A DNA stretch of 61,036 nucleotides, counting the filler. It is 13 parts of 13 records of this genome, joined end to end, with 100 filler letters (N's around TTAATTAATTAA, not from the genome) between each part and the next. Parts side by side here need not be neighbours in the genome. Positions count along the whole stretch, not along the records: positions 11,612 to 16,329 come from SRR7504441_26470; 12 more parts are not named here. The stretch is one strand, 5' to 3'. The stretch's first letter is position 1. Every line of letters starts with the position of its first letter. Below the pieces are notes generated by a model that was given only the letters and a program-made list of their open reading frames with translations, made no database searches and had not been told where the DNA came from. Below are positions 3,003-50,941 of this stretch, piece after piece. Position numbers and translations under genes: made by a program.

Positions 3003-3102
3003 NNNNNNNNNNNNNNNNNNNNNNNNNNNNNNNNNNNNNNNNNNNNTTAATTAATTAANNNNNNNNNNNNNNNNNNNNNNNNNNNNNNNNNNNNNNNNNN
3101 NN
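3003..3102. other. Artificial contig linker (N44-TTAATTAATTAA-N44)
   Basis: Identical 100-nt spacer with stops in all frames; recurs at 11512, 16330, 20361, 25821, 29498, 34310, 39816, 43934, 48057, 52061 and 56216. Confidence 0.99.
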
Positions 3103-8760: not shown

Positions 8761-11389
8761 CTATACGTCATGCGGTATCAAGCCACCCATCTCGGCTACT
8801 AACTCGTCATATGCAGCACCCTCCATCGGGCCGTATCTATCTAGCTCCATCGTGAAGCTCCCTTGGCCTTTCGAAAGCGACCGGAGTAGGCTTGAGTACC
8901 CGACCATGTGTGACAGCGGCGCTTGAGCCCGCACGATCTGCAGACCAGTCGGTAGCACCTCGACCTGCTCGATCGTGGCGGCCCTGCGCGAGGTGAGATC
9001 GGCCATCACTGGTCCGACGTAGTCGCTGGGTGCACTCAGCTGGAGGCTCATCATCGGCTGTGGCACAATCAGGACAAATGCAGCAGCCGGCTTGCGCACC
9101 TGAAGCATCGTGGGCGATGCCTGTAGCAAACAGGCGGTGCACCACTTCCTAGCAGCCAAGCGCAGGGCCAGGCCCGCATCAGCTGCCAGCCGCAGGTGAC
9201 CACGGGCTGCATGGCCTATGCTCACTCGGGCTCGCGCTTGCTGCTTCGAGATCAGCCATCTCGAGCGACACGCTCACCCCAGTCAGAGGGTACCCGAGCA
9301 ACACTCCCCGATGGCCTGTCCCCTGAGTCAGATTTGATCCCAGCTTCGGGCACAAGCATCGTGGATCCCATCGGTGACGGCTTCCAGCCCGCCACTGTGA
9401 AGACGCTCCCGAAGCTCCTGCCCAAACGAGACCTCTAGCGCGTCGCTCTCCGCTGGCGCTACAGAGCCTGCCATCTCCACCTGACACCGTGAGACGGGCA
9501 GTCGACAGCACGCACTGCAGAGAGCCGCGACACAGTCGGTTCGATCACAGACGCCCAGTGGTGCGACGAGAGGATTGCCTCTCGATACGCGATCTGCACG
9601 CTGCTCGCGCGTACTCCTGGCACTTTAAATTCGCGCTGCAGCCTGTCCCGGCCGTCCATCCCGTCAGTGTGCACTCACCGGTCGATCGCGAGCTCCAGGT
9701 GCAGTTCGCCCATCCCTCCCAGCAGCACCTGCAGCCGGGCGCTGGCCGGTCCCGCGCCAAACAAAACCTGCCCCGTGTCTTCGCTGTTGCTGTGACACAA
9801 ACTGGGGTCTTCCCGTGATAGTGCTGCCAATGCTTTGTCGAGTGCCGGCTCTGCCAGCTGGCGTGAGCCCCGATACTCAGCAGTTGCACCGTCTGATGCG
9901 CTCTCAAGCTCCAAGGCTACTGAGAAGACCGCAGACGGCACCCGTACTCCCTCGAGCTGCCTGCACCCGCCAGCTGGCCTGCTCAGTCTCGTTTGCCCTC
10001 ACCCCGAGGCGCTCTTGGGGCTCAGCAGCGTATCGCCTGTGCGAGTGGCCTTGAGCCCGACCGCAGCCCCGATCTCGCCAGCCTCAAGCCGATCCACCGT
10101 CTCCATCTTCCCGCCACGGATCTGCCTCAACACGTTCAGGCCGGCCCTGCTGGCCTGCCAGTGCTGCCTGCATCAGCCGGAGCACTCGTTCAGGCTTCTT
10201 CAGCGTCGAGTTCTTGAGCATCTGACCCCCCTTCGGTGTGAACCGATAGCTCTCATACCATCCCCGGAGTGACAGCACCCGAGTACACCCGCATGAACAC
10301 AACCGGGGCCTGCTGCGAGTCGTGCACCACCTATATCGCGCTCACCAACTGCCCCCGCCCACGGGCTGCCTTAAACGCCAGAGCAGTTGTCTCGGCCAGC
10401 GGGCTGGACGCCCCAATCAACTCTGGCGCGCCCGAAGGCGGCTTGAGCAGCTCTGCTACGCCGTCCATCAGTTGCTCCACGCCGCCCGAGTCGTGCAAAG
10501 CCGATCCGAGGTACACAGGCACCAAAAGCCCGGCGGCAGTTGCTCGGGCTGCCGCCGCCATGACCTGCTCCGCGGTGATCTGATCCGGGCTCTCCAGGAA
10601 TGCATCCATCAGCGGCTCGTCGTGGCAGGCCAGCAGCTCCAGCTGCCCCCCCGTAACGCCCTTCCAGTCTCGGCGTACCATCGCCTCCCGCTCGGCTGCG
10701 AACCCGTCCGTTGGCTCGACTAAACTCACTGCGCCGGTCCATTCGTCGCCTTGGTAGACCGGTGCCTGCATCGGGAGCGGCTCCAGCCCGAGCTTGGAGC
10801 GCATCATGCCCAGCGTCCGCTCAAAGTCGGCCCCCATCCGGTCCATCTTGTTCACAAACGCCACCGCCGGCAGGCCGAATCGCGAAGCCTGCCGCCACAC
10901 CTGCCGCCCGTCCTGCCCCCCCGGCCGCCGGCCGCCACACCGCCTCGGTCTGCGCCTCGACGCCGGCCACCGCGTCAAATATCAGCACGGCGTTGTCCAG
11001 CACGCGCACCGCCCGCTCGACCTGCCCGAGCCGCTCAGCCGCCACCCAGCGCCGGCAGCGGCCTCCACTGTGAAGTCGGCGTGCCCCGGCGTGTCGATCA
11101 GGTTGATCTGGCGGTCGCGCCAGTCAAACCCGATGGCTGCGGCCTGAATAGTGATCCCGCGCTCGCGCTCCTGCGGCATGTAGTCGGTGACCGTGTCGCC
11201 CGAGTCTACCCCGCCCAGCCGACGGGTGACTCCGGCCAGGTGCAGCATCCGCTCGGTGGTGGTGGTCTTGCCCGCGTCCACGTGCGCAATCACCCCGATG
11301 TTCCGGATCCGCTCGGCGCCAGCCGAGAACCCCCGACCCCCTGCCCTCCGTAGCCTCCCCCCAGCTCCCCATAGCCGCCCGAACCACAT
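8761..11389 (-). CDS. GFM2: Mitochondrial EF-G2 / ribosome-releasing factor 2; at least 10 tiny introns
   Basis: Arg-rich presequence; [38 protein letters not shown]; domain [13 protein letters not shown]. Confidence 0.88.
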
Positions 11390-11481
11390 GCTCGCCGCTG
11401 ATCCGGCGCCGGGCGGCACCGTCTAACGGAACAAACTTTAGGTTGCAGGCACGCAATGCAAGGCGGCAAGGGCGCCCGGTC

Positions 11482-11507: not shown

Positions 11508-11611
11508 CCGANNNNNNNNNNNNNNNNNNNNNNNNNNNNNNNNNNNNNNNNNNNNTTAATTAATTAANNNNNNNNNNNNNNNNNNNNNNNNNNNNNNNNN
11601 NNNNNNNNNNN

Positions 11612-14229
11612 GGCAGCCCCAGAACGCCGCGATGAAATCCAACCCGGGCAGGTACATTAGCACCGCTCGATCGTTTTGCTTGCAGCCCCACTTGTGCAGC
11701 AGCGCGCAGCAAACTGCGTTTGCCCACATCTCCAGGTCTAGGTAGGACCAGCTGGTCTGCTCTTGGCCCTTGTCGTCTAGCCAGGTGTAAAGCGTCTTGT
11801 CGGGCTGCAGCTGGTTCCAGTGTCGGAGCGCGTGCGCCACCGTGGCATGTGCGGGCTGGGTTGGCTCTTGCTGTTCAGGTGCACCGATAGTATTTTCGTC
11901 CGATGCCCAGCTAGCCCTCTCTAGCTCGAGTGCATCCTTGGCTTGAGCTAACAGTATAGGATTGAGTAGAGTCGTTGGTGCTGCCGCGACTTCAGTACCG
12001 GTTCTTGGTTGGAGACTTGCCACAGGCTCCTGCCGCCTAGTAGCATGCCTGGGATTGATCGACTTCGACTTATTTGACTGCTGAGGCACCACACCAATCG
12101 AGGCTAATGTAATGCACTCATTGCTGTCCAGACCAGAGCTGGTGCCATCAGAAATTTCCGCCGGACCAATGATGATGGATGCTGGCTCGTGTAATCCGAT
12201 AGTCGGGCCGGGCTGATTGGGAACGGGCCGTGACCCTGCTTGGCACACTCCGGCACCAAATAGCTGCTCATGTGGTTGTGCCGGTGTGCCGATCCATTTA
12301 CCAGTCGATAGTGTGGCACAGCAGACAGATGAATTTGGCATCAACTGTGCGCCGTCCTCCATCACAGTCCCAGGCAGAACGACACTACCAGTGCTATTGC
12401 TGCAGCCCTTGCCAATGCGCACTGGCCTGATGTGCAACAGACCCGTCCAAATATCGTGGCAGTACACGCTGCTAACAATGCTTGAACTGTTCCCAATACT
12501 GAGCAGCTCGAAGCAACTCCCCTCGGTGATTGACACTCGTACTCCACAACCAAGGTCCGCGCCCAGGAGCCGCAACCAATAAACCATGAAGATGCTACCT
12601 TCAAACAGCGGGCTGGCGGCTGCATGTACTGTTCGGAACAGCAGCTGTCCATACCACCACTTGACGAACGGCAAGCTCCACAACTTGTACGAACCTGTAC
12701 CCACAGGCACCAGACATCGTAGCAGGACCACGATCACTATCTGGCACATGAGTAGGGGTAATACTAGCAGTGGAAGCATGTACAGCGAAGCCTCTTGGTC
12801 CACATGCTGTGCCACCAACCCCAGCAGCAACCAACCTGGGAAGATGGCGATAGCCCAGATTACTGGAAGGCTTGCTAGTCCTAGCAAGTGCACTCCGAGA
12901 ACAAAGAAGCTGCTGAGTGAAGAGTGCTGCGTAGTTGGTTGACACACTAGCCTGTAGTCACCCGAATCGAACTTCATGTACTCCTGCTCTTGCAGTCTTT
13001 TGTCACTAAGCTGAGTAGCGACCCATGTGCTCAGCTTTCGCAGAGTGTTGTACTCAAAAACGATCATAGGTGTGGTCACCACATGGTATTTTTCGGTGAG
13101 CCTCGCGGCAAGTCTTGTAGCGTCCTTGCTGGTAAAGCCGGCGCTGAAGAAGTTCTCATCAGGATTCAGACTCTGTTCAGTTGCAAGTAACCCCCGAAGC
13201 TCTTTGATAAAACTGTCGGCCGATGCAACATCTTGGCAAAGCTCGCAGTCGGTGGCACACGGCCCGGCGATCTCGGATTTCGTGTTCATGACACAAGCTG
13301 GACACGACTTGATGGGGTTGAGCTGAATGTCCTCGACCCGTGCGCTTTGGGTGCGCCTCATTTGATGAATGCACAAAAAGGTAGAAATCGTGTACAGAAG
13401 GCACAGTAGCAAGATGGCTGCAAAGATTCCCAAAAAAGCAAATTCATGCGCTCGGAGGCCTGGCTCCGGATTTGAATTGCAGGTGTTACATTCGGACTCA
13501 CCGCAGCCACTGAAGTGCGCGAGTTGGATCGTGCCATCGCTGCTCTGTGTCAATACCGTTAACTGGCTAACCTCGGAGTTGCCCTCAGGTGAAGATCGGA
13601 TGGGTCCTGCCTCGGCTAAAAGTTGGCCGGCTGGATCGAACGCCCCGATCTTGATCCGAATCTCACCAGTTGGCAACATATAATCTATTGTCACTGACTG
13701 GCCATAGCCCGACGGAATAGTTACCACCTGCTGCCACAACTCCGAGCCCCAAACTGCGACTGAAGCGGTGACAGGGCCTGCGGTCCCATAGTTGGCCAAG
13801 ACGAGCCGCTGCTTGTTGACCTGAACCAGATCGCCGCCACCGTACCACCGGAGTGCGTACTGCACCGAGTCCTCTATCGCCACCAGTGCGATTAGGTTAG
13901 TCGCCTGACACGATACACTAATCTGCACACTCACAGGGCCGGCCAGTAGTGATCCATCCGCACCAAATGCCTGCCACACACCAGTAGGCACTGGCCTCGA
14001 GCCGCACGCTCACCTGCACGTCGTAGGTTGTCTCGCTACAGTCGAAGTACGACGCCTCGCCGTAACGGGTGATACTCGAGGCCACACGGGCGCTTGATGC
14101 AGCTCGTGCCACTAGGTAGGCGCCAGCGGAGTTCGGGTGGGCATTTGCAAACGCGCAGATCGCCGCCACCTTTGGTACCAGCACCCAGACTGCCACGAGC
14201 ACAATCAGGGTCTTGGGAGAGGACATCAT
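11612..14229 (-). CDS. Membrane NRPS-like multidomain protein: signal peptide, two DUF4397-like repeats, TM, carrier domain, Pls-type TM/left-handed beta-helix domain, fatty acyl-AMP ligase (truncated by the contig end)
   Basis: One 43-nt intron near 13971-14013; ENFFSAGFTS...IVFEYNTLRKL (carrier); GSYKLWSLPFVKWW, WLRLLGADLG, IGKGCSNSTGSVVLPGTVM, GKWIGTPA (terminal domain); QPDKTLYTWLD...DRAVLMYLPGLDFIAAFWGC (FAAL N-terminus). Confidence 0.78.
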
Positions 14230-14834
14230 GATCGGTGCTGCGCCCTCAAGTGAGCCGGCCGCCCGGCCTGGGCCGCTTACCGCTCCGGTCGCGTCTTTCC
14301 GGCTGTCGCCCGGCAGCTTATTCGGCGACCGTCCTGGCCGTCTTTCCGCCTCCGCCTTGCCGTCCTCGGTCGACCGTGGAGCGAGCTGGCTGGCCCAGCG
14401 GGCCAATGCCAACTGCGAAGACCAGGGTCAATCGCTCAATGAAGACCGCCCCAACCGCTCAAGGCCACTTCTTAATTCTTATTAGTATACGTATACTGTA
14501 CTGGTGGAAAGACTGGAAACCTACCAGGTACCGTGGAATCCTCACGATTCTACCAGTGTTTCTTTTTCCATTTAGTTTAATCCGACCCCGCCCAGCCGGA
14601 TCCAGCACCATCGCAGCCGCATTTTCACCGGCGCCGCCGGGCGAGGGGAGCGCGCTGATCGGGGCCATTGTGTTTTTTTTTTTCCGTAGACCGGGTTGAA
14701 TGCGCGTCGGATGCAAGATGTAAACTTCCTTCTAGATAGTGCACAACGGAGAATAACCCTCATATGTTCTATCACACGTGTGAGATTTTATCATTGATAG
14801 ATCTACATGACAATTCTACTGGTAGCGGAGCCCG

Positions 14835-16329
14835 CTAATTGAGTGCTTGAGGCGATACTTGCTCAGCCAGCGATGGGCTACTGAGCTTACAATCGCCGTT
14901 GCCGTCACTAGGGTATGGGTGGTCGTGGCTGCCCTTCTCGTCGACATGCACCACCTTGGAATACATGTCCGTGTCCACCATGCGCCTTGCAGGGCACCCA
15001 GGCCTGCTGCACCGGAAGTACTGCCGCGTCCTGGCTTGCGCCTCCTGCCCGTCGGTGGGCTTGATGGCCTTCTGCCCGTACTTGTGCCATTTGAGAGGCT
15101 CGTGGTCGGCGGGTCGGCGGACTTGTCGCTGCTTCTTCTTCGTTGGCACCTCGCTGCCCAGAGGTGAGGCCAAAGAATTCATAGGAAGTGGCGGCGCGAG
15201 CTGCTGCGGCATTAGCGACTGCATTGCCGCGTCTAGCGGATCTATCTGCTGGCTGGCTGGAAATATGGGCATCTGCTGCTGACTGCCACCATCGAGCCCC
15301 ATGTCTGGAAACGGTGGCACCCCGCCCTGCGAGATGGAACCGCCGCCGCCCCAGATCTGCTGCATGGGGTCCATCATCATACCCGGGGCCCCGAGTGCAT
15401 CCTGCGGGTCTCCCCCGGGCTGCGGTGCGCCGGCTGCAGGCTCGGATCCCGTGGTGAGATCTTCGACAGCCCAATCAAGCGCTCTGTCAAGCTCTTCCTC
15501 CTCTACAAACCACTCTGCCCAGGTGCCCTCCTTGTCGTCCCAGAGCATCATCCGCTCGCCCTTCTTCTCGTCGACCGCCTCGGTCTTCCAGAGGTCGGTC
15601 AGGAACTCGTCATCCAGCTTGCCATCCAGCACGTCGTCCAGTGACAGCTCACCGCCGCTAGGCCGGCCTCGCTTCATCCCAGGACTTGCCTCGGCCGCGT
15701 GCGCACTGCCCCCTGCACTCAGCGCCCGCACGACCCAAGCCCGTCACCTCGGATCCTCGGGCTCGACAGCTGGCTCCTGCACAGAGGGCCGAGCGGCCAC
15801 GGCGGGCTCAGCTTGCTTTCCGGTGGAGTACGCCGCAAGCGCCGCCTGCAGCGTGTTCACTTGGGGGGGGTATATTGGCGCCGGTGGCCCCATAGGCTGT
15901 GCCGGCGCGCCCCCCGTCTGTACTGCCCCTGAGGCGGGCTGCGACTCCCCCCCGGGCGACACCATGCTGCCCGGCCCGTTCCGCCAGCCGGTGGGCCAGC
16001 CGTTGTTGGCGAGCACGGGGACTCCATCTGTCTGGTCCAGCTCGCTCTTCATCCGCTCCTGGCACACCTGCTCCGCGTCGATCACCTCGCGGAACGCTTC
16101 TAGCTGGGCCGCCAGATTCCTGAATAGTGCCTCCGCCTGGTGCTGTCGACGCGCCACCAGTATCAAGTCCATCAGCGCGTAACGGGCCCGGTTCTCCTTG
16201 TCCATCCAGCACTGCCGCAGGTCGCGCTGCACGTTGAGCAGCCCCCCAGTCTGCATCGCGTACTGTTGTTGGATAGTCCTGTCGAACTGCCGCAGCGCGC
16301 TCTGGCATTCCTGCAGCTCCAGCGCGTCG
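14835..16329 (-). CDS. WRKY-domain transcription factor (5' partial)
   Basis: WHKYGQK followed by RQYFRC-x4-C-x22-H-x-H; P/Q/M-rich low-complexity region; one 42-nt intron near 15706-15747. Confidence 0.82.
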
Positions 16330-16429
16330 NNNNNNNNNNNNNNNNNNNNNNNNNNNNNNNNNNNNNNNNNNNNTTAATTAATTAANNNNNNNNNNNNNNN
16401 NNNNNNNNNNNNNNNNNNNNNNNNNNNNN

Positions 16430-16488: not shown

Positions 16489-17947
<1,459 letters not shown>

Positions 17948-39915: not shown

Positions 39916-42303
39916 GTAGCTGTTGCCGGGTTGGATCTGGAGATACAGGCGAGAGTGCTCGAGGACATGACCGTAGATGAGAGGGTGCTCACTCTGAATT
40001 CGATGCGAAGAAAGCAGAGGGCGGAGGCTCTTGCAGTAACGGCTCCCGAGTTAAGAGCCGAATCTCTGCTCGCGATGAATCCAAACGCCCGGGCCGAGGC
40101 GCTGGCGCTGCTGACCGAGAACGAGCAATCTGAAACCCGGAAGGCGCTGGCTCCGGGCCGTTGGCTGGACATGACGGTTGGGGCATCTGTCGCAGAGCGG
40201 TCGAGGTTGCTGATGGAGCTCTCGCTGCCAGCTCAGGCCAGTACACTTTTAGCAATGGAAGAAGCGGAGAGAGCCGCTGTGATGAGTAGCCTTTCCGCGG
40301 AGCACAGGGCGGCTGTTATTTTAAGCATGCCTGATGGCCCACAAGGGGCACTCGCAGCGATGCCAATCGAGCAGCGGGTGGCTACCTTGCTTGCTATGTC
40401 TGTTGAGGGAGTCGCCAAAGCGCTGGCTAACATGGAGGTTGAGGAACGGGTCGAGGTGCTGGCGGGAATGTGGGCCGAAGAGCGTGTCGTGTGTCTCGCG
40501 GCAATCGGGCCAGAGCTGGCTGCGCCAACCCTTGCTGCCATGTGGCCTGAGGAGTGCCGGGCGACCTGGCAGGCAATGGATCCAGACCACAGGGACGAGG
40601 TTCTCAGAGAGTTGACAGCTGAGAGCGCAGCCAAAGTTCTGATGCCCACAGTTAGTGATCCGGAAGCTTTGGCTGAGAGTCTGCGGCGCATGCCGACCAA
40701 AAGGGCTGCGGATGTGCTCTCGAGAGCAGCGCCAGAAGAGAGAGTGGCTGGATTAACTGCCATGCCGCCCAGAGATCAGGCGGCGATTTGTCTTCAGATG
40801 GAACCGGAGGCTATGGCACTCACCATTCACGCAATGCGGCCCGATGAATGGGCACCTGTGAAAGCAACTATGAGCCAAGAAGAGCGACAGACCGCGCTTG
40901 ATGCGCTGCAGCAGGCGCGACAAACTGTTCTCCAGGACTGTGCATGCAAGCAATGTGCTGAGGCTCGTCCAGAAGGCAAGGCCAAGGTCCTGGTGGCAGT
41001 TTTATCGCCGGCGTTGGATGCCCTGGTTGCTTTGGCCCTTCAGAAGCTGGGGGTCGCGCGTCTCAACGCTTACTATTCAAATCGACGAAAGATCCTTGGT
41101 GCAAGCTTACAGGACATATTGTATCGGCACGACAGGATGAGAGTTGCCCTGCTCGACTGGGCAAGCCTAGACCAACGCAGCCAGCTCTCATCAGTACTGC
41201 AAAGTTTGATAGCTGGAAATGAGTTGGCAAAGGCGGAAGCTATTAAGTCCAAGGCCGACTCTGATGCAAAGATTCGAACATGCATGTCTGCCTGGTCTTG
41301 GTTTATAGACAAGGGCCCCGTTCAATGGTCGGTCCTGCAGATCTGGATTGCCAATACTCGATCGCAACCCATTGTCGCTGCTGCAACGTCCAATCTGGTC
41401 AGCGCAAGCGGACCGGCCCTCACAACAACGTCGGGCAAAGATCAGGCTGAAGCTCTAGTTGAGCTACCTGCCGACAAACAGGCCAAGACGCTGAGCCAAA
41501 TGGGTGCTGATGAGAAATCAGCGACTCTAAATGCCATGGACGCCGAGCAGAGGGCTGGGATTCTTGGCAGTATGATTCCGAAAGAGGGCGGTTTGGCCCT
41601 CTTAACCATCTCGCCGGCAAAGCAGGCAGGCACGCTTGCAGCTATGCCCGCAGAGGAGCAGGCTGCAGTACTAGCAGCTTTGACACACAAGGACCGCATG
41701 GCCGCCCTGAGTGCCATGGCTCCAGCATCTGCAGCATCTGCTCTAGCCAATTCTTCAGTCTCAGAGCGCGCACACATGCTTGCTGGGATGCCGTCAGCCA
41801 GGAGAGTTGCAGTGTTGAGAGAGTACACTGCAGAAGAGAGCACCGCGATGCTCTCAGAGATGCCGCAAAAGACACGCCTGGCGACCATTGCGGAGATGCC
41901 CGAAACACTGTTCCAAGGCGTGGAAGCTGAGCGTCCAGCGAACATGCCGTCGAAAATCGTCGAAGATTTTGAGGGCAAGGAGCCGGAGGAAATAGCGGCA
42001 TATCTGGCTGGCATGCCTCCGGAGGGGCGATGGCCACTGCTCGCAGCGATGCCCGAGTGTGGGCGCCATGTCCTGGCCGCCCTGACGCCTGAGGAGAGAG
42101 CCTCTACCCTCGCTGCAATGCCCCCACATAGAAGAGACACTGCTCTGAGCGCAATGAATCTCGAGGATAAAGCAGTCACTGCACCTCTACTGGCGACTCT
42201 GCAATCCAAACGCAGGCTAGCAGAAGAACCGTCACTCACAAACTTGTCGCCAATCGACGCAATGCTTGTGCACAATGGGCTTGATGTGACTCAGTCTAAA
42301 TAA
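39916..42303 (+). CDS. Alpha-solenoid protein of roughly 12-aa LxxMxxExRAxx repeats (MgtE_N/FliG-like), 5' partial, intronless
   Basis: 790-aa ORF with two blocks of repeats such as LAAMPAEEQAAV, LAGMPPEGR, LAAMPPHRR. Confidence 0.65.
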   Translation, partial: VAVAGLDLEIQARVLEDMTVDERVLTLNSMRRKQRAEALAVTAPELRAESLLAMNPNARAEALALLTENEQSETRKALAPGRWLDMTVGASVAERSRLLMELSLPAQASTLLAMEEAERAAVMSSLSAEHRAAVILSMPDGPQGALAAMPIEQRVATLLAMSVEGVAKALANMEVEERVEVLAGMWAEERVVCLAAIGPELAAPTLAAMWPEECRATWQAMDPDHRDEVLRELTAESAAKVLMPTVSDPEALAESLRRMPTKRAADVLSRAAPEERVAGLTAMPPRDQAAICLQMEPEAMALTIHAMRPDEWAPVKATMSQEERQTALDALQQARQTVLQDCACKQCAEARPEGKAKVLVAVLSPALDALVALALQKLGVARLNAYYSNRRKILGASLQDILYRHDRMRVALLDWASLDQRSQLSSVLQSLIAGNELAKAEAIKSKADSDAKIRTCMSAWSWFIDKGPVQWSVLQIWIANTRSQPIVAAATSNLVSASGPALTTTSGKDQAEALVELPADKQAKTLSQMGADEKSATLNAMDAEQRAGILGSMIPKEGGLALLTISPAKQAGTLAAMPAEEQAAVLAALTHKDRMAALSAMAPASAASALANSSVSERAHMLAGMPSARRVAVLREYTAEESTAMLSEMPQKTRLATIAEMPETLFQGVEAERPANMPSKIVEDFEGKEPEEIAAYLAGMPPEGRWPLLAAMPECGRHVLAALTPEERASTLAAMPPHRRDTALSAMNLEDKAVTAPLLATLQSKRRLAEEPSLTNLSPIDAMLVHNGLDVTQSK

Positions 42304-48156: not shown

Positions 48157-50941
48157 CACAACTTGACGCTCGACTGGGTCGGGTTGTGGAATGAGCACTG
48201 GGAGGCGGACCAAGTCATGTTTGGTGCGTTAATCCTCTACCATGGCGATGCTAATTGAGTGGGCAGCGTTCGCCAAAGAGCTCCGGCGGCAGCTCGACGG
48301 TGCTGGGCTGCAGGCGACCAGAATCATTGGGCCCGATGCTTTTACCAACGCAGCCGAGACGCTGTGCCAGGGAATGCAACGGGACCCGGAGCTGAATCGA
48401 GCGATAGACGCGATTGGGGTCCACGGATCCATCCCTGGGGCGGGCTCAGCGTGCCAGCAGCTCGCAGATCAGCAGCATCTGCCACTGTTCGCATCCGAGG
48501 ATGGCAGCACCTACGGCGACACCACTGGGGCATTGCAGCGGGTGAGTGACTGTAATGATGAATATCTTAAATCCAAGTCTCAAGGGTCCAATTTCTGGAA
48601 CCCGTTTGGAGCATATTACCCAGGGATCACTTTTTATGGACATTCTCTTCTCGATTGTCATCATCCGTGGTCAGGACATTACCTCGTGCGTTCGCCAATC
48701 TGGGCAGCCGCACATCAGAACCAGCATACACAGGTTGGCATGTGGTACCTCCCCAACGCGTCTGGGCCGCTCGCATCGGGATGTGGCTCGATGATGAGCA
48801 CTGTTTCGCCTGACGGGACAAACTTTACGATTGTGATCGAGAGGAACGACTTGGCTCCAGTGGGATCGACAGGGGCCGGCCACGCTCCAGCATCGTGCCC
48901 GATAGAGGCAGCCACATTCGAGTTGAAAGGCAGGCTGCTGCCTGCTGTCTCGAAAGTGGCTGTCTGGCTTAGCCAGTTGGACAACGACACTAAGCCCATC
49001 AAATTATTTGAACGGCAACATGATGTGGCTGTGGTGGACGGCAAATTTAGTGTAATTCTCCCACCTCGATCGCTGGCGACAATCACATCGCTAACCGACA
49101 TTGGAAGGAAGGGCACTCATAAAATACCGCCCCCAGCAGCCCCATTTCCGATGCCTTATGCCGATGACTTTGAAGGATATCCGAAGGACGGTTCCAATTT
49201 GGCTCGGTACTTTGCGGATATGAGTGGCGGTTTTGAGGTTATTGCAGACCCGACTACTGGAAGCGGGGTGCTGGCTCAGCGGACACCGATAACTCCGATT
49301 GGGTGGTATGGGCTTCGGGCAGATACCGTACCCTACACCACTATTGGCAGTTTTGATTGGTCCGACTACGCTGTTTCCGCAGATATCCACTTACCGGAGC
49401 CAGCAGAGGCATTGTCTGGTAATTTAGGCTGGGTGGGAGCTCGCCTTGGTGGGGATCCCGAATGTGACGGCCCTTCTCCCATCTGCTCCAATCCGTGGGG
49501 CGTATTTGCTGTAATTTCCAATCAGCCTGCCAGCGGTGGCAGGGAGTTACGATTGCATCTGCGCTTGGGCACAATCGCCGATCCGAGCACGCAACTGTTC
49601 AATGCAAGCCTTGCGACATCTGATACCGGCTGGTCACGCGTCGAGCTCTTAATGCAAGGAACAAAAGCGACAGTTCACGTCGATGGGAAGTTGCTGTGCG
49701 ACCGTTTTGATGTGAGCGGCCCTCCCAAAGCTCCAGGACCTTCCAAGAGCTTCCTCCCTCAATCCGGATGGGCTGGTCTCGGTGGGGGGCCGGACTACTC
49801 AACAGCTTTGTACTTTGACAACTTCAGTGTGGCACCCGGGGCTGGGGCGGCGGCATCAACAGTCTCCCTGTGCTCTGCAACGCTCAGAAGCGGTATGTCG
49901 GTGGTCGGAGTCCCTTGTGGGCTAGATGTTCCAGGTCTGGCGTTTGATCTCAACCACTTAGCCATGCCGAATGGCACCTCCAATGTGATTGTTACACCAC
50001 GCGCTGCGCCACATCTGTGTGTGGCCAAGGCAGAGACAACATTGCAGCTGCTACCGTGTAACAAGAGCGACATCGCACAGCACTTTGTCTACGACCGAGA
50101 CCGAGCGACCATCTCAGCCGGGGCTGCAGGCGGAGGAGGGAAACCAGCCTCACCGTGGCAAACATTCACACCTGGGCAGGGCATTAAGTATGGGAAACCA
50201 TATCAGTCCGGCCAAATCATCACTGCAATCAGACATCTGCCGCAGCACCAGGAGCAAGAGGAGCTCGAGTTCCTGGTCGACGGAAAGAGCCAAGGGCGGG
50301 TGAAAATGCCGCTGACGTTACCAGACGATGCAGTTGGCTGCATCGGAGTGTGCAATCAGCATGAATCCATCGCCTCTGCAAGTGCGGTGGCACCTGCACT
50401 CTTTATTAATGCACCACAGCAGCATGGGCCGCAGGTGAGTGTAGCTCAGGATGGCCGGAATGCCTCCTGGGGAGACAGCTCATGCAACCAGCTAGCCATT
50501 GTTGACCCAAAGAGCTCGGATGTTGGGAGCCCATCATTCTCTTTGAAGCTTGACCGCTTCGATGGGGTCGGATTTATCGACATTGGCTGGTGCTCGAAAA
50601 GCCTCGACCCAACTGGGAAGAGCTGGACGGCATATGGAGGCGGCAAGTGGATGGGCTACCAAGGTGTGGATCTCGATTGGGTCTATCGAGCAAATGGGCT
50701 GTTCAAGGCCTCCACAGACGGTGAGGGCGGTGGTGCTGGATCAAGTCATCAGTGGTGCTTTCCTGATGACGATGACTTCAACCGCGGGACGGTGCGACCG
50801 TGGGGAATAGCAGAGGTTGGCCCAAAGGCTTGTACAGCAGCCAAAAGTGGTGGCGAACTTGTGATGTTCGACGTCGAGTTGGGTGCATTGCGCACGATGG
50901 CAGATACTCAAGGCGGACTATGTTATGGCGTTTGTCGCTAG
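48157..50941 (+). CDS. GALC: GH59 galactocerebrosidase-like glycosidase with C-terminal lectin/ricin-like region and SPRY-like insert (5' partial)
   Basis: GLWNE (acid/base), IDAIGVH, PLFASED (nucleophile), PWSGHY..RSPIWAAAH, PFPMPYADDF, YFADMSGGFE. Confidence 0.82.

What the first reader, a model, noticed from the sequence alone, without database searches (positions are those of the whole stretch)
11612..14229. Receptor-like, membrane-spanning NRPS/FAAL assembly line
Seen in one spliced frame: signal peptide (MMSSPKTLIVLVAVWVLVPKVAA); two beta-rich repeats resembling DUF4397 (FANAHPNSAG...YGEASYFD..TYDVQ; about 13510-14160); a Cys cluster; a TM helix (about 13369-13443); a CPAC..C...C..C cluster; a carrier domain with Ser in FFSAGFTS (codon 13128-13130); two hydrophobic helices plus hexapeptide beta-helix motifs matching the C-terminal repeat of poly-amino-acid synthetases (about 12290-12920); a linker; then the start of a fatty acyl-AMP ligase. 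Known: epsilon-poly-L-lysine synthetase Pls is A-T-(TM/C-like) and begins with the A domain; FAALs load fatty acids onto carrier domains. Inference: here the order is permuted and preceded by an ectodomain, suggesting a cell-surface, possibly ligand-gated synthetase making a lipopeptide or acylated polymer. I know no described protein with this architecture; it is the best candidate for a new system in this window. The gene is cut off at 11612.
Basis: partly seen in the sequence, partly recalled or inferred. Interest (0 to 1): 0.82.

Follow-up and report, generated by a model that had tools for sequence, protein, structure and literature searches.

The report
Membrane carrier-acyltransferase fused to fatty-acid ligase
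A marine protist gene fragment encodes one membrane protein that joins an outward-facing beta-rich domain to an acyl-carrier domain, a single polylysine-synthetase-type transferase unit and the start of a fatty-acid-activating enzyme, an order of parts not seen in any relative found here.

Summary
On the minus strand of a 4.7-kb contig (11612-16329; the window is a chain of short contigs) lies a gene with a signal-peptide exon, a 43-nt GT..AG intron and a 786-codon open exon that runs off the contig end. Profile searches recover a PP-binding carrier domain with its serine, one TM-pair plus left-handed beta-helix (LbH) unit of the Pls/PosA terminal domain, and the first ~78 residues of a FAAL-type adenylating domain. 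DUF4397 is not recovered; the ectodomain is a beta-sandwich with only one homologue found. The fusion looks real: the 142-codon linker has no stop, and the FAAL part has no start codon of its own. An uncharacterised eukaryotic family (land plants, a diatom, Symbiodinium) has the order FAAL-T-LbH, and Telonema has KS-T-LbH. The unit here carries the His that bacterial Pls-type enzymes keep only in unit C3, and a homotrimer model passes its controls. Best reading: a trimeric, self-loading acyl-carrier acyltransferase. "Cell-surface" and "ligand-gated" are untested. This is a new variant of a known kind, and the gene is incomplete.

The parts
14014..14229 (-). Exon 1 (72 codons). ATG at 14229. 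Signal-peptide-like N-terminus, residues 1-23 (14161-14229), then the first 49 residues of the luminal/extracellular domain.
   Evidence: Sequence read. Hydropathy peak 2.57 over residues 3-30, with small residues at -3/-1 before residue 24. No dedicated signal-peptide predictor was available.
13971..14013 (-). 43-nt GT..AG intron, followed by G
   Evidence: Splicing restores the frame between an ATG-initiated ORF and exon 2, whose coding conservation with P0064 starts upstream of any in-frame ATG. Introns of similar size occur in other genes of the window: 41 nt GC..AG in EF-G, 37 nt GC..AG in enolase, and a probable 42 nt GT..AG intron in the WRKY gene of the same contig. No RNA contig covers it.
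13452..13970 (-). Exon-2 part of the beta-rich luminal/extracellular domain (spliced residues 73-245), ending in a C-x4-C-x2-C motif
   Evidence: One homologue was found, P0064 (142 aa, 47% identity, E 4.2e-20). AF2 gives an all-beta model with mean pLDDT 52 and a core at 64-82. VIA-align best Z is 8.0, tied among generic Ig-like sandwiches. No Pfam or NCBIfam family at E <= 1.
13371..13445 (-). TM helix 1 (spliced residues 248-272), followed by a basic stretch (two Arg, then a third)
   Evidence: Hydropathy 2.64. Long helix in the AF2 model.
13236..13304 (-). Cys cluster CxxC-x11-C-x3-C-x2-C (Cys 295, 298, 310, 314, 317); possible metal site, function unknown
   Evidence: pLDDT < 50. Not present in P0008 or P0009.
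13020..13187 (-). Carrier (T/PP-binding) domain; phosphopantetheine Ser353 at codon 13128-13130
   Evidence: PF00550 E 4.9e-11, 43.2 bits. pLDDT 80-93. Foldseek match to the free-standing PCP 4hkg, TMt 0.81. The Ser column is kept in P0008 and P0009. RNA contigs cover 13047-13308 and 13001-13151 at >= 99%.
12696..12923 (-). Pair of TM stretches (spliced 422-462 and 465-497) that precede the LbH domain, as in each Pls/PosA unit
   Evidence: Hydropathy 2.18 and 2.84. Helices with pLDDT 81-90. Aligns to the TM pair before C1 of P0001.
12252..12695 (-). Soluble left-handed beta-helix (LbH) unit of Pls/PosA type; conserved His577 at codon 12456-12458
   Evidence: TIGR02353 E 1.6e-20, profile 23-213 of 695. 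pLDDT 84-97. Foldseek matches trimeric hexapeptide acyltransferases, E 9e-5 to 1e-3. His column analysis. Homotrimer model. An RNA contig covers 12253-12492.
11847..12251 (-). Linker of about 140 residues, predicted disordered, open in frame, with no Met
   Evidence: pLDDT < 50. 0 stops in frame against 3, 8, 8, 3 and 11 in the other five frames; 12 of 5000 shuffles are open. GC3 is 0.50.
11612..11846 (-). First ~78 residues of a FAAL-type adenylating domain, cut by the end of the contig
   Evidence: Relatives P0012 (71%), P0020 (66%), P0018 (65%) and P0022 (60%). P0020 matches solved FAALs at 1e-63 to 4e-28, against 1e-23 for NRPS A domains.
11512..11611 (.). Artificial joint between contigs (N44, TTAATTAATTAA, N44); the EF-G gene beyond it is on another contig

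Best explanation
The gene encodes a type-I-like membrane protein of a marine protist.

Shown by sequence and profiles: it contains, in order,
- a signal peptide;
- a beta-sandwich domain of about 220 residues on the luminal/extracellular side;
- one TM helix;
- a short Cys cluster;
- a phosphopantetheine carrier domain (Ser353);
- a TM hairpin;
- one Pls/PosA-type LbH transferase unit (His577);
- a disordered linker of about 140 residues;
- a FAAL-type adenylating domain, of which only the start is on the contig.

Inferred mechanism:
1. The FAAL adenylates a fatty or other carboxylic acid and loads it as a thioester on the carrier domain of the same protein or of a neighbouring subunit.
2. The single TM-hairpin/LbH unit assembles as a homotrimer. 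This reproduces the pseudo-threefold C1-C2-C3 body of Pls/PosA, with His577 at the subunit interface.
3. The LbH unit transfers the carrier-bound acyl group to a free nucleophile (amine or hydroxyl) at the cytosolic face of the membrane. LpxA and LpxD do this from acyl-ACP, and Pls does it from aminoacyl-T.
4. The product would be an N- or O-acylated small molecule, lipid or polymer. The TM bundle may pass it outward.

The role of the outward-facing domain is unknown. It could anchor the protein, handle the product or sense a signal.
For: Architecture
- PP-binding E 4.9e-11.
- TIGR02353 E 1.6e-20, with the best match to C1 of a canonical Pls-type protein.
- FAAL start. Its 66%-identical relative P0020 matches solved FAALs far better than A domains.

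One protein
- The exon is 786 codons and open.
- The linker has 0 stops against 3-11 in the other frames, and 12 of 5000 shuffles are open.
- There is no in-frame ATG between Met616 and Met819, and Met819 lies inside the conserved FAAL N-terminus.
- GC3 of 0.60 is within the range of other genes of the window, 0.56-0.85.

Topology
- SP + TM1 + basic flank + TM pair puts T, LbH and FAAL on one side and the beta domain on the other.

FAAL serving such units
- 8 of 165 held proteins combine FAAL with T and/or Pls-type LbH units, among them land plants, a diatom and Symbiodinium.

Catalytic competence of the single unit
- In 64 three-unit proteins the His column is His in 90% of C3 units. The commonest residue is Tyr (35%) in C1 and Ala (21%) in C2.
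- Our unit, P0008 and Telonema unit 1 have His there.
- So does unit 1 of the Marchantia, Selaginella, Eucalyptus and Symbiodinium proteins.

Trimer
- The PosA paper models the three LbH domains as a pseudo-threefold body like sugar-nucleotide acyltransferases (PMC10522769, section 13 read).
- Foldseek places our LbH nearest to trimeric hexapeptide acyltransferases.
- Complex prediction of three copies of residues 415-645 scored 0.69 against a best control of 0.01. The mark was reached by 21 of 30 proteins solved as pairs of one chain and by 0 of 23 solved as single chains. The runs agree in at least 88% of contacts and partner pLDDT is at least 74.
- Interface residues 159, 161 and 164-168 flank His577, which is residue 163 of that piece.

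Expression hint
- Four contigs from three poly(A)/oligo-dT or metatranscriptome studies match at >= 99%.
Against: - The gene is incomplete. Whatever follows the FAAL start is unknown. A second carrier domain and further LbH units may follow, in which case the FAAL may serve those and the pseudo-trimer could form within one chain.
- The AMP-binding hit is below Pfam's cut-off and covers only 78 residues. FAAL-defining features (the insertion, lack of CoA use) cannot be seen.
- The substrate, the acceptor and the catalytic role of His577 are inference only.
- The trimer pass may come from the model's memory of solved LbH trimers. The tool's calibration was for two copies and mostly for microbes.
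- In 13 of 19 FAAL relatives the ORF starts with Met within about 50 residues upstream of the conserved helix, so FAAL-first is the norm. In the closest T-LbH relative, P0008, the ORF stops 11 residues after the LbH. The fusion seen here has no second example.
- Linker GC3 (0.50) is lower than in the flanking coding parts, and the FAAL start is higher at 0.81.
- No read or contig bridges 11812-12031 or the intron.
Confidence: 0.45

Rival explanations
1. Two-module enzyme. The visible T-LbH is an adenylation-less first module that another adenylating enzyme loads in trans, perhaps with an amino acid. The FAAL belongs to a second, canonical FAAL-T-LbH module that lies beyond the contig end. Together they would make a lipo-amino acid or an acylated poly-amino acid, which is the first reader's lipopeptide/acylated polymer idea.
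For: Every relative with both parts has FAAL upstream of T-LbH, 8 of 8. What follows a FAAL in this family is normally T and LbH units. Pls-type units are known to polymerise amino acids (PMC10522769, passages).
Against: No A domain or second T is visible. Nothing is known beyond 11612. The closest clade (ours, P0008, Telonema unit 1; support 99/100) is linked to KS or FAAL, not to amino-acid A domains. His577 and the trimer model suggest that the single unit can work alone.
Confidence: 0.25
2. Two neighbouring same-strand genes (SP-ecto-TM-T-LbH, then FAAL-...), or a chimeric metagenomic join, that happen to be in one open frame. There would be no fusion protein.
For: In relatives, FAAL ORFs start with their own Met in 13 of 19 cases. 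P0008 stops just after the LbH. Composition changes along the gene: GC3 0.60, then 0.50, then 0.81. No independent contig bridges 11812-12031. 9.4% of all 142-codon windows in the six frames of this GC-rich window are open, real genes included. All ORFs that read as genes on this contig lie on one strand, so tandem genes are plausible.
Against: There is no stop for the first gene and no ATG for the second. The first in-frame Met after the LbH lies about 40 residues inside the conserved FAAL N-terminus. The frame is the same on both sides. 12 of 5000 composition-matched shuffles of the linker are open, and the other five frames carry 3-11 stops. A DNA contig from another run matches 12032-12467 without gaps.
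Confidence: 0.1
3. A non-catalytic or regulatory membrane protein in which T and LbH are degenerate relics.
For: The T motif is atypical: Gly-Phe-Thr-Ser followed by Lys rather than Gly-Gly-His/Asp-Ser-Leu. There is only one LbH unit. TIGR02353 scores far below its cut-off.
Against: The Ser and the following Lys-Asp-Ala are conserved in P0008. The T-LbH region is 35-41% identical to P0008 and Telonema P0009, with invariant blocks. His577 is conserved. pLDDT is high. The low TIGR02353 score is expected when one of three units is present.
Confidence: 0.05

Closest known systems
Pls / PosA family homopoly(amino acid) synthetases (epsilon-poly-L-lysine synthetase of Streptomyces albulus; delta-poly-L-ornithine synthetase PosA of Acinetobacter baumannii; NCBIfam TIGR02353)
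   Same: A carrier domain is followed directly by a TM pair and an LbH domain. The best alignment is to T-C1 of a canonical member, 26% identity over 388 columns. TIGR02353 E is 1.6e-20.
   Different: No amino-acid A domain lies upstream of T. One unit is seen instead of three. The unit carries the His that the 64 three-unit proteins compared keep mainly in C3. An adenylating domain of FAAL type lies downstream. A signal peptide, a beta domain and an extra TM helix lie upstream. The host is eukaryotic and the gene has an intron.
Uncharacterised eukaryotic FAAL-T-(TM-LbH) proteins: Marchantia polymorpha MpACOS18, Selaginella and Eucalyptus 'carrier domain-containing proteins' (amine oxidase-FAAL-T-LbH-catalase-like, about 2300 aa), Seminavis robusta, Symbiodinium 'fadD29'
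   Same: The same three catalytic parts (FAAL, T, Pls-type LbH) sit in one polypeptide. Unit 1 carries the same Cys/Ser-His-Asp/Glu-type motif as ours.
   Different: Their order is FAAL first. They have two or three LbH units. No signal peptide plus beta ectodomain was seen in them. Identity is only 21-47% over the matched parts. None is functionally described in the papers searched.
Telonema subtile KS-T-(TM-LbH) proteins (EukProt EP00656 P038690/P038691) and the marine metagenome fragment P0008
   Same: These are the closest relatives of the T-LbH part: 35% identity, E 7.3e-54, and 41%, E 1.2e-58. They form one clade with ours, support 99/100.
   Different: Telonema has a ketosynthase upstream and more LbH units downstream (two found by phmmer). 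P0008 is a 329-aa ORF that stops after the LbH. Neither shows the ectodomain or a downstream FAAL.
FAAL loading domains (FadD32/FadD28 of mycobacteria, Legionella FAAL 3kxw, PKS loading FAAL 7r7e, N-terminus of PvdL-type PRK05691)
   Same: The N-terminal 78 residues align to them. The near relative P0020 matches them at 1e-63 to 4e-28.
   Different: Only the start is present, and it lies downstream of the carrier rather than upstream.
Acyl-ACP-dependent LbH acyltransferases LpxA/LpxD and trimeric hexapeptide acetyltransferases (recalled knowledge for LpxA/LpxD; PDB matches for the acetyltransferases)
   Same: LbH fold, trimer with the active site at subunit interfaces, and a His general base (recalled). 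Foldseek E is 9e-5 to 1e-3 to serine, maltose and galactoside acetyltransferases. A homotrimer is predicted.
   Different: Those are soluble, with a separate ACP or CoA donor. No sequence-level family membership was found: WcaF-type NF007797 gave only E 0.032.

Membership tests
Pls/PosA family NRPS (TIGR02353 terminal domain) | Amino-acid adenylation domain N-terminal to the carrier domain | tested here: not met
   Upstream of T lie a signal peptide, a beta domain, a TM helix and a Cys cluster. No AMP-binding hit is there. The only adenylating domain is downstream and of FAAL type.
Pls/PosA family NRPS (TIGR02353 terminal domain) | Three tandem units of TM pair + LbH domain (C1-C2-C3), scoring above 423 bits | tested here: not met
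   One unit only in the 858 residues present: 73 bits, profile 23-213 of 695. Further units beyond the contig end cannot be excluded.
Pls/PosA family NRPS (TIGR02353 terminal domain) | Carrier domain directly followed by a TM pair and LbH fold | tested here: met
Phosphopantetheine carrier domain (PF00550) | Profile score above the gathering cut-off, and Ser at the attachment position | tested here: met
   43.2 bits against 20.8. Ser353 aligns with the Ser of P0001, P0008 and P0009. Modification itself is not testable here.
Fatty acyl-AMP ligase (FAAL) | ANL-superfamily N-terminal domain closest to FAALs rather than to A domains or acyl-CoA ligases | tested here: inconclusive
   Only 78 residues are present. 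PF00501 scores 18.5 bits, below the cut-off of 29.9. The best PDB matches are FAALs. The 66%-identical relative P0020 clearly prefers FAALs.
Fatty acyl-AMP ligase (FAAL) | FAAL-specific insertion that blocks CoA use; transfer to a carrier protein only | not testable with these tools
   That region lies beyond the contig end at 11612. P0020 also ends before it.
   No Pfam family at E <= 1 for exon 1 or for the exon-2 ORF outside PP-binding and AMP-binding. The domain split by the intron could not be scanned as one piece. The fold search gives only generic beta-sandwiches, Z <= 8.0.
Trimeric LbH acyltransferases | LbH fold, homotrimer, interface His | tested here: inconclusive
   Fold is met. 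The trimer is supported by prediction only: 0.69 against a control of 0.01, and possibly from memory. The His is conserved, but its catalytic role is untested.

The most novel reading that the evidence does not exclude
A homotrimeric 'receptor-synthetase'. A single-pass membrane protein would have an extracellular beta-sandwich domain wired through one TM helix to a carrier domain, a one-unit Pls-type transferase and a FAAL. Events outside the cell (ligand, surface contact or the nascent product itself) would then control or template the synthesis and export of an acylated lipid or polymer. This would be the first carrier-protein assembly line with an ectodomain, and the first one-unit, permuted form of the Pls polymerisation machine.
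Probability: 0.12. Interest if true: 0.85.

Novelty: new variant of a known kind. Interest (0 to 1): 0.6.

Why it matters
Pls-type membrane transferases are the least understood catalytic part of NRPS-like enzymes. The copy of the PDB searched here yielded no solved structure of this domain.

A natural one-unit version that must trimerise would be a simpler object for structural and mechanistic work. It would also show how the three-unit enzymes arose by triplication.

The finding also draws attention to a wide, uncharacterised eukaryotic family that joins FAAL, carrier and Pls-type units. That family includes land plants and major marine protist groups, and its products (probably acylated lipids or polymers) are unknown.

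An ectodomain on such an enzyme, if real and functional, would link the cell exterior directly to thiotemplate chemistry.

Tried and rejected
- Whole genome: none is held, so the rest of the gene and a PPTase could not be sought. 0 of 44 long ORFs of the window scanned had a PPTase family. That says nothing about a fragmentary bin.
- Related loci in JGI metagenome contigs: two scans, with the protein and with alignment A1. 52 and 47 pattern matches were found and none was confirmed.
- Word-based homologue search with the ectodomain: none at E <= 0.01, although HMMER had found P0064. So this blank is weak.
- ESM Atlas: the ectodomain's best score was 0.76 (DUF5719-type clusters), below any useful level. 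The whole protein gave no usable hit.
- Earlier findings of this scan: nothing by place, sequence or words.
- Sequencing runs: 7 runs hold only 5-10% of the sampled words. Contigs of four runs were laid and cover 11751-11811, 12032-12492, 12706-12856 and 13001-13308 only. There was no joint, no cover of the intron and none of 11812-12031. The uncovered parts carry no weight either way.
- Ectodomain fold: the model has low confidence (pLDDT 52), and matches are tied among unrelated Ig-like sandwiches. No family can be named.
- Plus-strand ORFs under and upstream of the gene: 6 scanned, none with a Pfam family.
- Telonema FAAL-T-KS (P0110) and KS-T-LbH (P0158) as pieces of one transcript: their KS domains are only 32% identical, so they are paralogues and not overlapping pieces.
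- Placing the unit within C1, C2 or C3 by tree: the deep forks are unresolved.
- Papers: no paper held all the terms for TIGR02353 or for a Pls cryo-EM structure. Listings for FAAL with poly-L-lysine, dinoflagellates, algae, or NRPS-like plus hexapeptide gave nothing on this architecture. Supplementary tables of PMC10522769, which list eukaryotic homologues, could not be seen.
Full report
**What the window is.** The 61-kb window is not one molecule. It has 24 runs of 44 N, paired around the 12-base string TTAATTAATTAA, so it is a chain of short contigs. The finding lies on the contig 11612-16329. No whole genome is held. The EF-G gene just 'downstream' (10334-11422) is on a different contig and is not a neighbour.

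Long ORFs across the window carry eukaryotic families: YEATS, UCH, enolase, GH59, a DEAH helicase, and WRKY on the finding's own contig. A helicase on another contig is 67% identical to a Prorocentrum cordatum protein and 44% to an Amoebophrya one. The bin therefore looks like a marine alveolate of dinoflagellate type, if the binning is sound. Runs that hold parts of the stretch are marine or seawater metagenomes and metatranscriptomes.

**Gene model.** All on the minus strand:
- An ATG at 14229 opens a 72-codon exon with a typical signal-peptide shape.
- A 43-nt GT..AG intron (14013-13971) joins it in frame to a 786-codon exon (13970-11612), which is still open where the contig ends.

Three points support the intron:
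- Coding conservation with the only ectodomain homologue, P0064, begins before any in-frame ATG of exon 2. An upstream start exon is therefore needed.
- Tiny introns are the rule here: 41 nt (GC..AG) in EF-G, 37 nt (GC..AG) in enolase, and a probable 42-nt intron holding the single TGA between the two ORFs of the WRKY gene on the same contig.
- The acceptor is followed by G, as in those other introns.

No RNA contig covers the intron.

**Domains (spliced numbering).**

| Residues | Feature | Evidence |
|---|---|---|
| 1-23 | signal peptide | |
| 24-245 | beta-rich domain | below |
| 248-272 | TM1, followed by a basic stretch | |
| 295-317 | five-Cys cluster | |
| about 334-389 | PP-binding, Ser353 at 13128-13130 | E 4.9e-11, 43.2 bits |
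| 422-497 | two hydrophobic stretches | |
| about 498-640 | LbH domain | TIGR02353 E 1.6e-20, profile 23-213 of 695 |
| about 640-780 | linker | |
| about 781-858 | start of an adenylating domain | below |

- The start of the adenylating domain matches PRK05691 (E 3.2e-12). It matches solved FAALs 7r7e/f/g (E 1.2e-5) and 3kxw (E 3.2e-3). Pfam AMP-binding is sub-threshold at 18.5 bits.
- An AF2 model of exon 2 with a 26-row alignment is confident for T (pLDDT 80-93), the TM pair plus LbH (81-97) and the FAAL start (71-90). It is low for the linker (< 50) and the Cys cluster.
- Foldseek puts the LbH next to trimeric hexapeptide acetyltransferases (E 9e-5 to 1e-3) and the T domain on a free-standing PCP (TMt 0.81).
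- The ectodomain has no Pfam or NCBIfam family at E <= 1, so DUF4397 is not recovered.
- The ectodomain's two-repeat signal is weak, z about 3. Its model is low-confidence and all-beta, resembling generic Ig-like sandwiches only (Z <= 8.0, tied).

Only the name given to the ectodomain fails.

**Is it one protein?** From the ectodomain to the FAAL start everything lies in one exon-sized open frame, so the fusion does not depend on the intron. The weak point is the 142-codon linker.
- For a fusion:
  - The linker has no stop in frame, while the other five frames have 3, 8, 8, 3 and 11. Only 12 of 5000 shuffles of the linker are open.
  - The T-LbH part has no stop.
  - The FAAL part has no ATG. 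The first Met after the LbH lies about 40 residues inside the conserved FAAL N-terminus.
- Against a fusion:
  - GC3 falls to 0.50 in the linker and rises to 0.81 in the FAAL start.
  - 13 of 19 FAAL relatives begin with Met shortly before the conserved helix.
  - P0008, the closest T-LbH relative, stops 11 residues after its LbH.
  - No independent contig bridges 11812-12031.

I put the fusion at about 85-90%.

**Relatives.** A full HMMER search of 1.84 billion representatives gave 1324 hits at E <= 0.001, of which 150 were listed.
- The T-LbH part is closest to P0008, a 329-aa marine fragment (41% identity, E 1.2e-58). Next is a Telonema subtile protein with KS-T-LbH units (35%, E 7.3e-54).
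- These three form a clade with 99/100 support. Its place among bacterial C1, C2 and C3 is unresolved.
- The FAAL start is 60-71% identical to several short marine fragments. One of them, P0020, matches solved FAALs at 1e-63 to 4e-28, against 1e-23 for NRPS A domains.
- Among 165 held proteins, 8 combine a FAAL with T and/or Pls-type LbH, always FAAL first, and none has LbH before FAAL.
- Named members are Marchantia MpACOS18, Selaginella and Eucalyptus proteins of about 2300 aa (amine oxidase-FAAL-T-LbH-catalase-like), the diatom Seminavis and Symbiodinium.
- The parts are therefore a known but uncharacterised eukaryotic combination. The order, the single unit and the N-terminal signal peptide, beta domain and TM helix are what is new.

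**The single unit.** I cut 64 three-unit proteins into C1, C2 and C3. These were proteins over 1200 aa with exactly three phmmer domains, taken from 161 proteins with any hit; the rest were left out. I aligned the pieces with our unit.
- At our His577 the C3 units have His in 90% of cases, inside a conserved His-Leu-Phe-Glu-Asp-Arg block.
- At that column the commonest residue is Tyr (35%) in C1 and Ala (21%) in C2.
- Our unit, P0008 and Telonema unit 1 have His there. So does unit 1 of the plant and Symbiodinium FAAL-linked proteins.
- The PosA paper models C1-C3 as one pseudo-threefold body like sugar-nucleotide acyltransferases (PMC10522769, passages and section 13 read).
- A one-unit protein should then form that body as a homotrimer. 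Prediction of three copies of residues 415-645 gave:
  - a score of 0.69 against a best control of 0.01;
  - a mark reached by 21 of 30 proteins solved as pairs of one chain and by 0 of 23 solved as single chains;
  - runs that agree in at least 88% of contacts, with partner pLDDT at least 74;
  - interface residues that flank His577.
- The tool warns that such a pass may reflect memory of solved LbH trimers, and that its calibration was for two copies.

**Mechanism (inferred).**
1. The FAAL adenylates a fatty or other carboxylic acid and loads Ser353-phosphopantetheine, in cis or across subunits.
2. The trimeric TM-LbH body uses His577 as a base to transfer the acyl group to a free amine or hydroxyl at the membrane. 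This parallels LpxA/LpxD, which use acyl-ACP (recalled knowledge), and Pls, which uses aminoacyl-T.
3. The product may leave through or along the TM bundle.

Hydropathy and the basic flanks put T, LbH and FAAL on the cytosolic side and the beta domain on the other. Which membrane this is remains unknown. A sensing or gating role for the ectodomain is possible but has no evidence.

**Expression.** Contigs from three RNA studies (poly(A), oligo-dT or metatranscriptome) match 13047-13308, 13001-13151, 12706-12856 and 12253-12492 at >= 99%. This is a weak hint of transcription. It does not prove one transcript.

**Verdict.** This is a real and well-observed feature. It is a new variant, through its order of parts, single unit and ectodomain, of the Pls/PosA-like and FAAL-loaded carrier enzymes. 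It is incomplete at its 3' end, and its function is inferred only.

Noticed in passing
whole window; linkers at 3003-3102, 11512-11611, 16330-16429 and nine more: The window is a concatenation of 13 short contigs joined by N44-TTAATTAATTAA-N44. Apparent neighbours across these joints are not linked.
   Followed up: yes
window 11009-11049 (EF-G), 17085-17121 (enolase), about 15703-15744 (WRKY gene), 13971-14013 (target): Introns are tiny (37-43 nt). Donors are GC or GT, and G follows the AG acceptor. This resembles dinoflagellate-type splice sites, as I recall them.
   Followed up: partly
window 14835-16329, minus strand: The WRKY-domain ORF (14838-15743) and the ORF upstream of it (15747-16328) are in one frame, separated by a single TGA. 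The TGA sits inside a GT..AG stretch of about 42 nt, so this is probably one gene that runs off the contig end.
   Followed up: partly
proteins P0082, P0043, P0166 (Eucalyptus, Selaginella, Marchantia): Land plants carry proteins of about 2300 aa with FAD amine oxidase, FAAL, carrier, Pls-type LbH units and a catalase-like domain. They are named only 'carrier domain-containing protein' or MpACOS18. The papers searched hold no functional description.
   Followed up: partly
protein P0074 (JGI metagenome contig, 3174 aa): A very large fusion: condensation domain, FAAL, alpha/beta hydrolase, amine oxidase, P450, carrier and three Pls-type LbH units.
   Followed up: no
proteins P0009/P0158, P0110, P0136 (Telonema subtile transcriptome): Telonema has KS-T-LbH, FAAL-T-KS and FAAL+EF-hand proteins. 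The two KS domains are only 32% identical, so they are paralogues.
   Followed up: partly
window 39916-42300 (+) and 48233-50938 (+): Long single-exon ORFs. One has four MgtE_N repeats. The other has GH59 (galactocerebrosidase-like) catalytic, central and lectin domains.
   Followed up: no
window 11751-11811: A DNA contig from a marine run matches the conserved FAAL start at about 90% and then diverges upstream. This indicates a paralogue or relative with a different region upstream of its FAAL.
   Followed up: no
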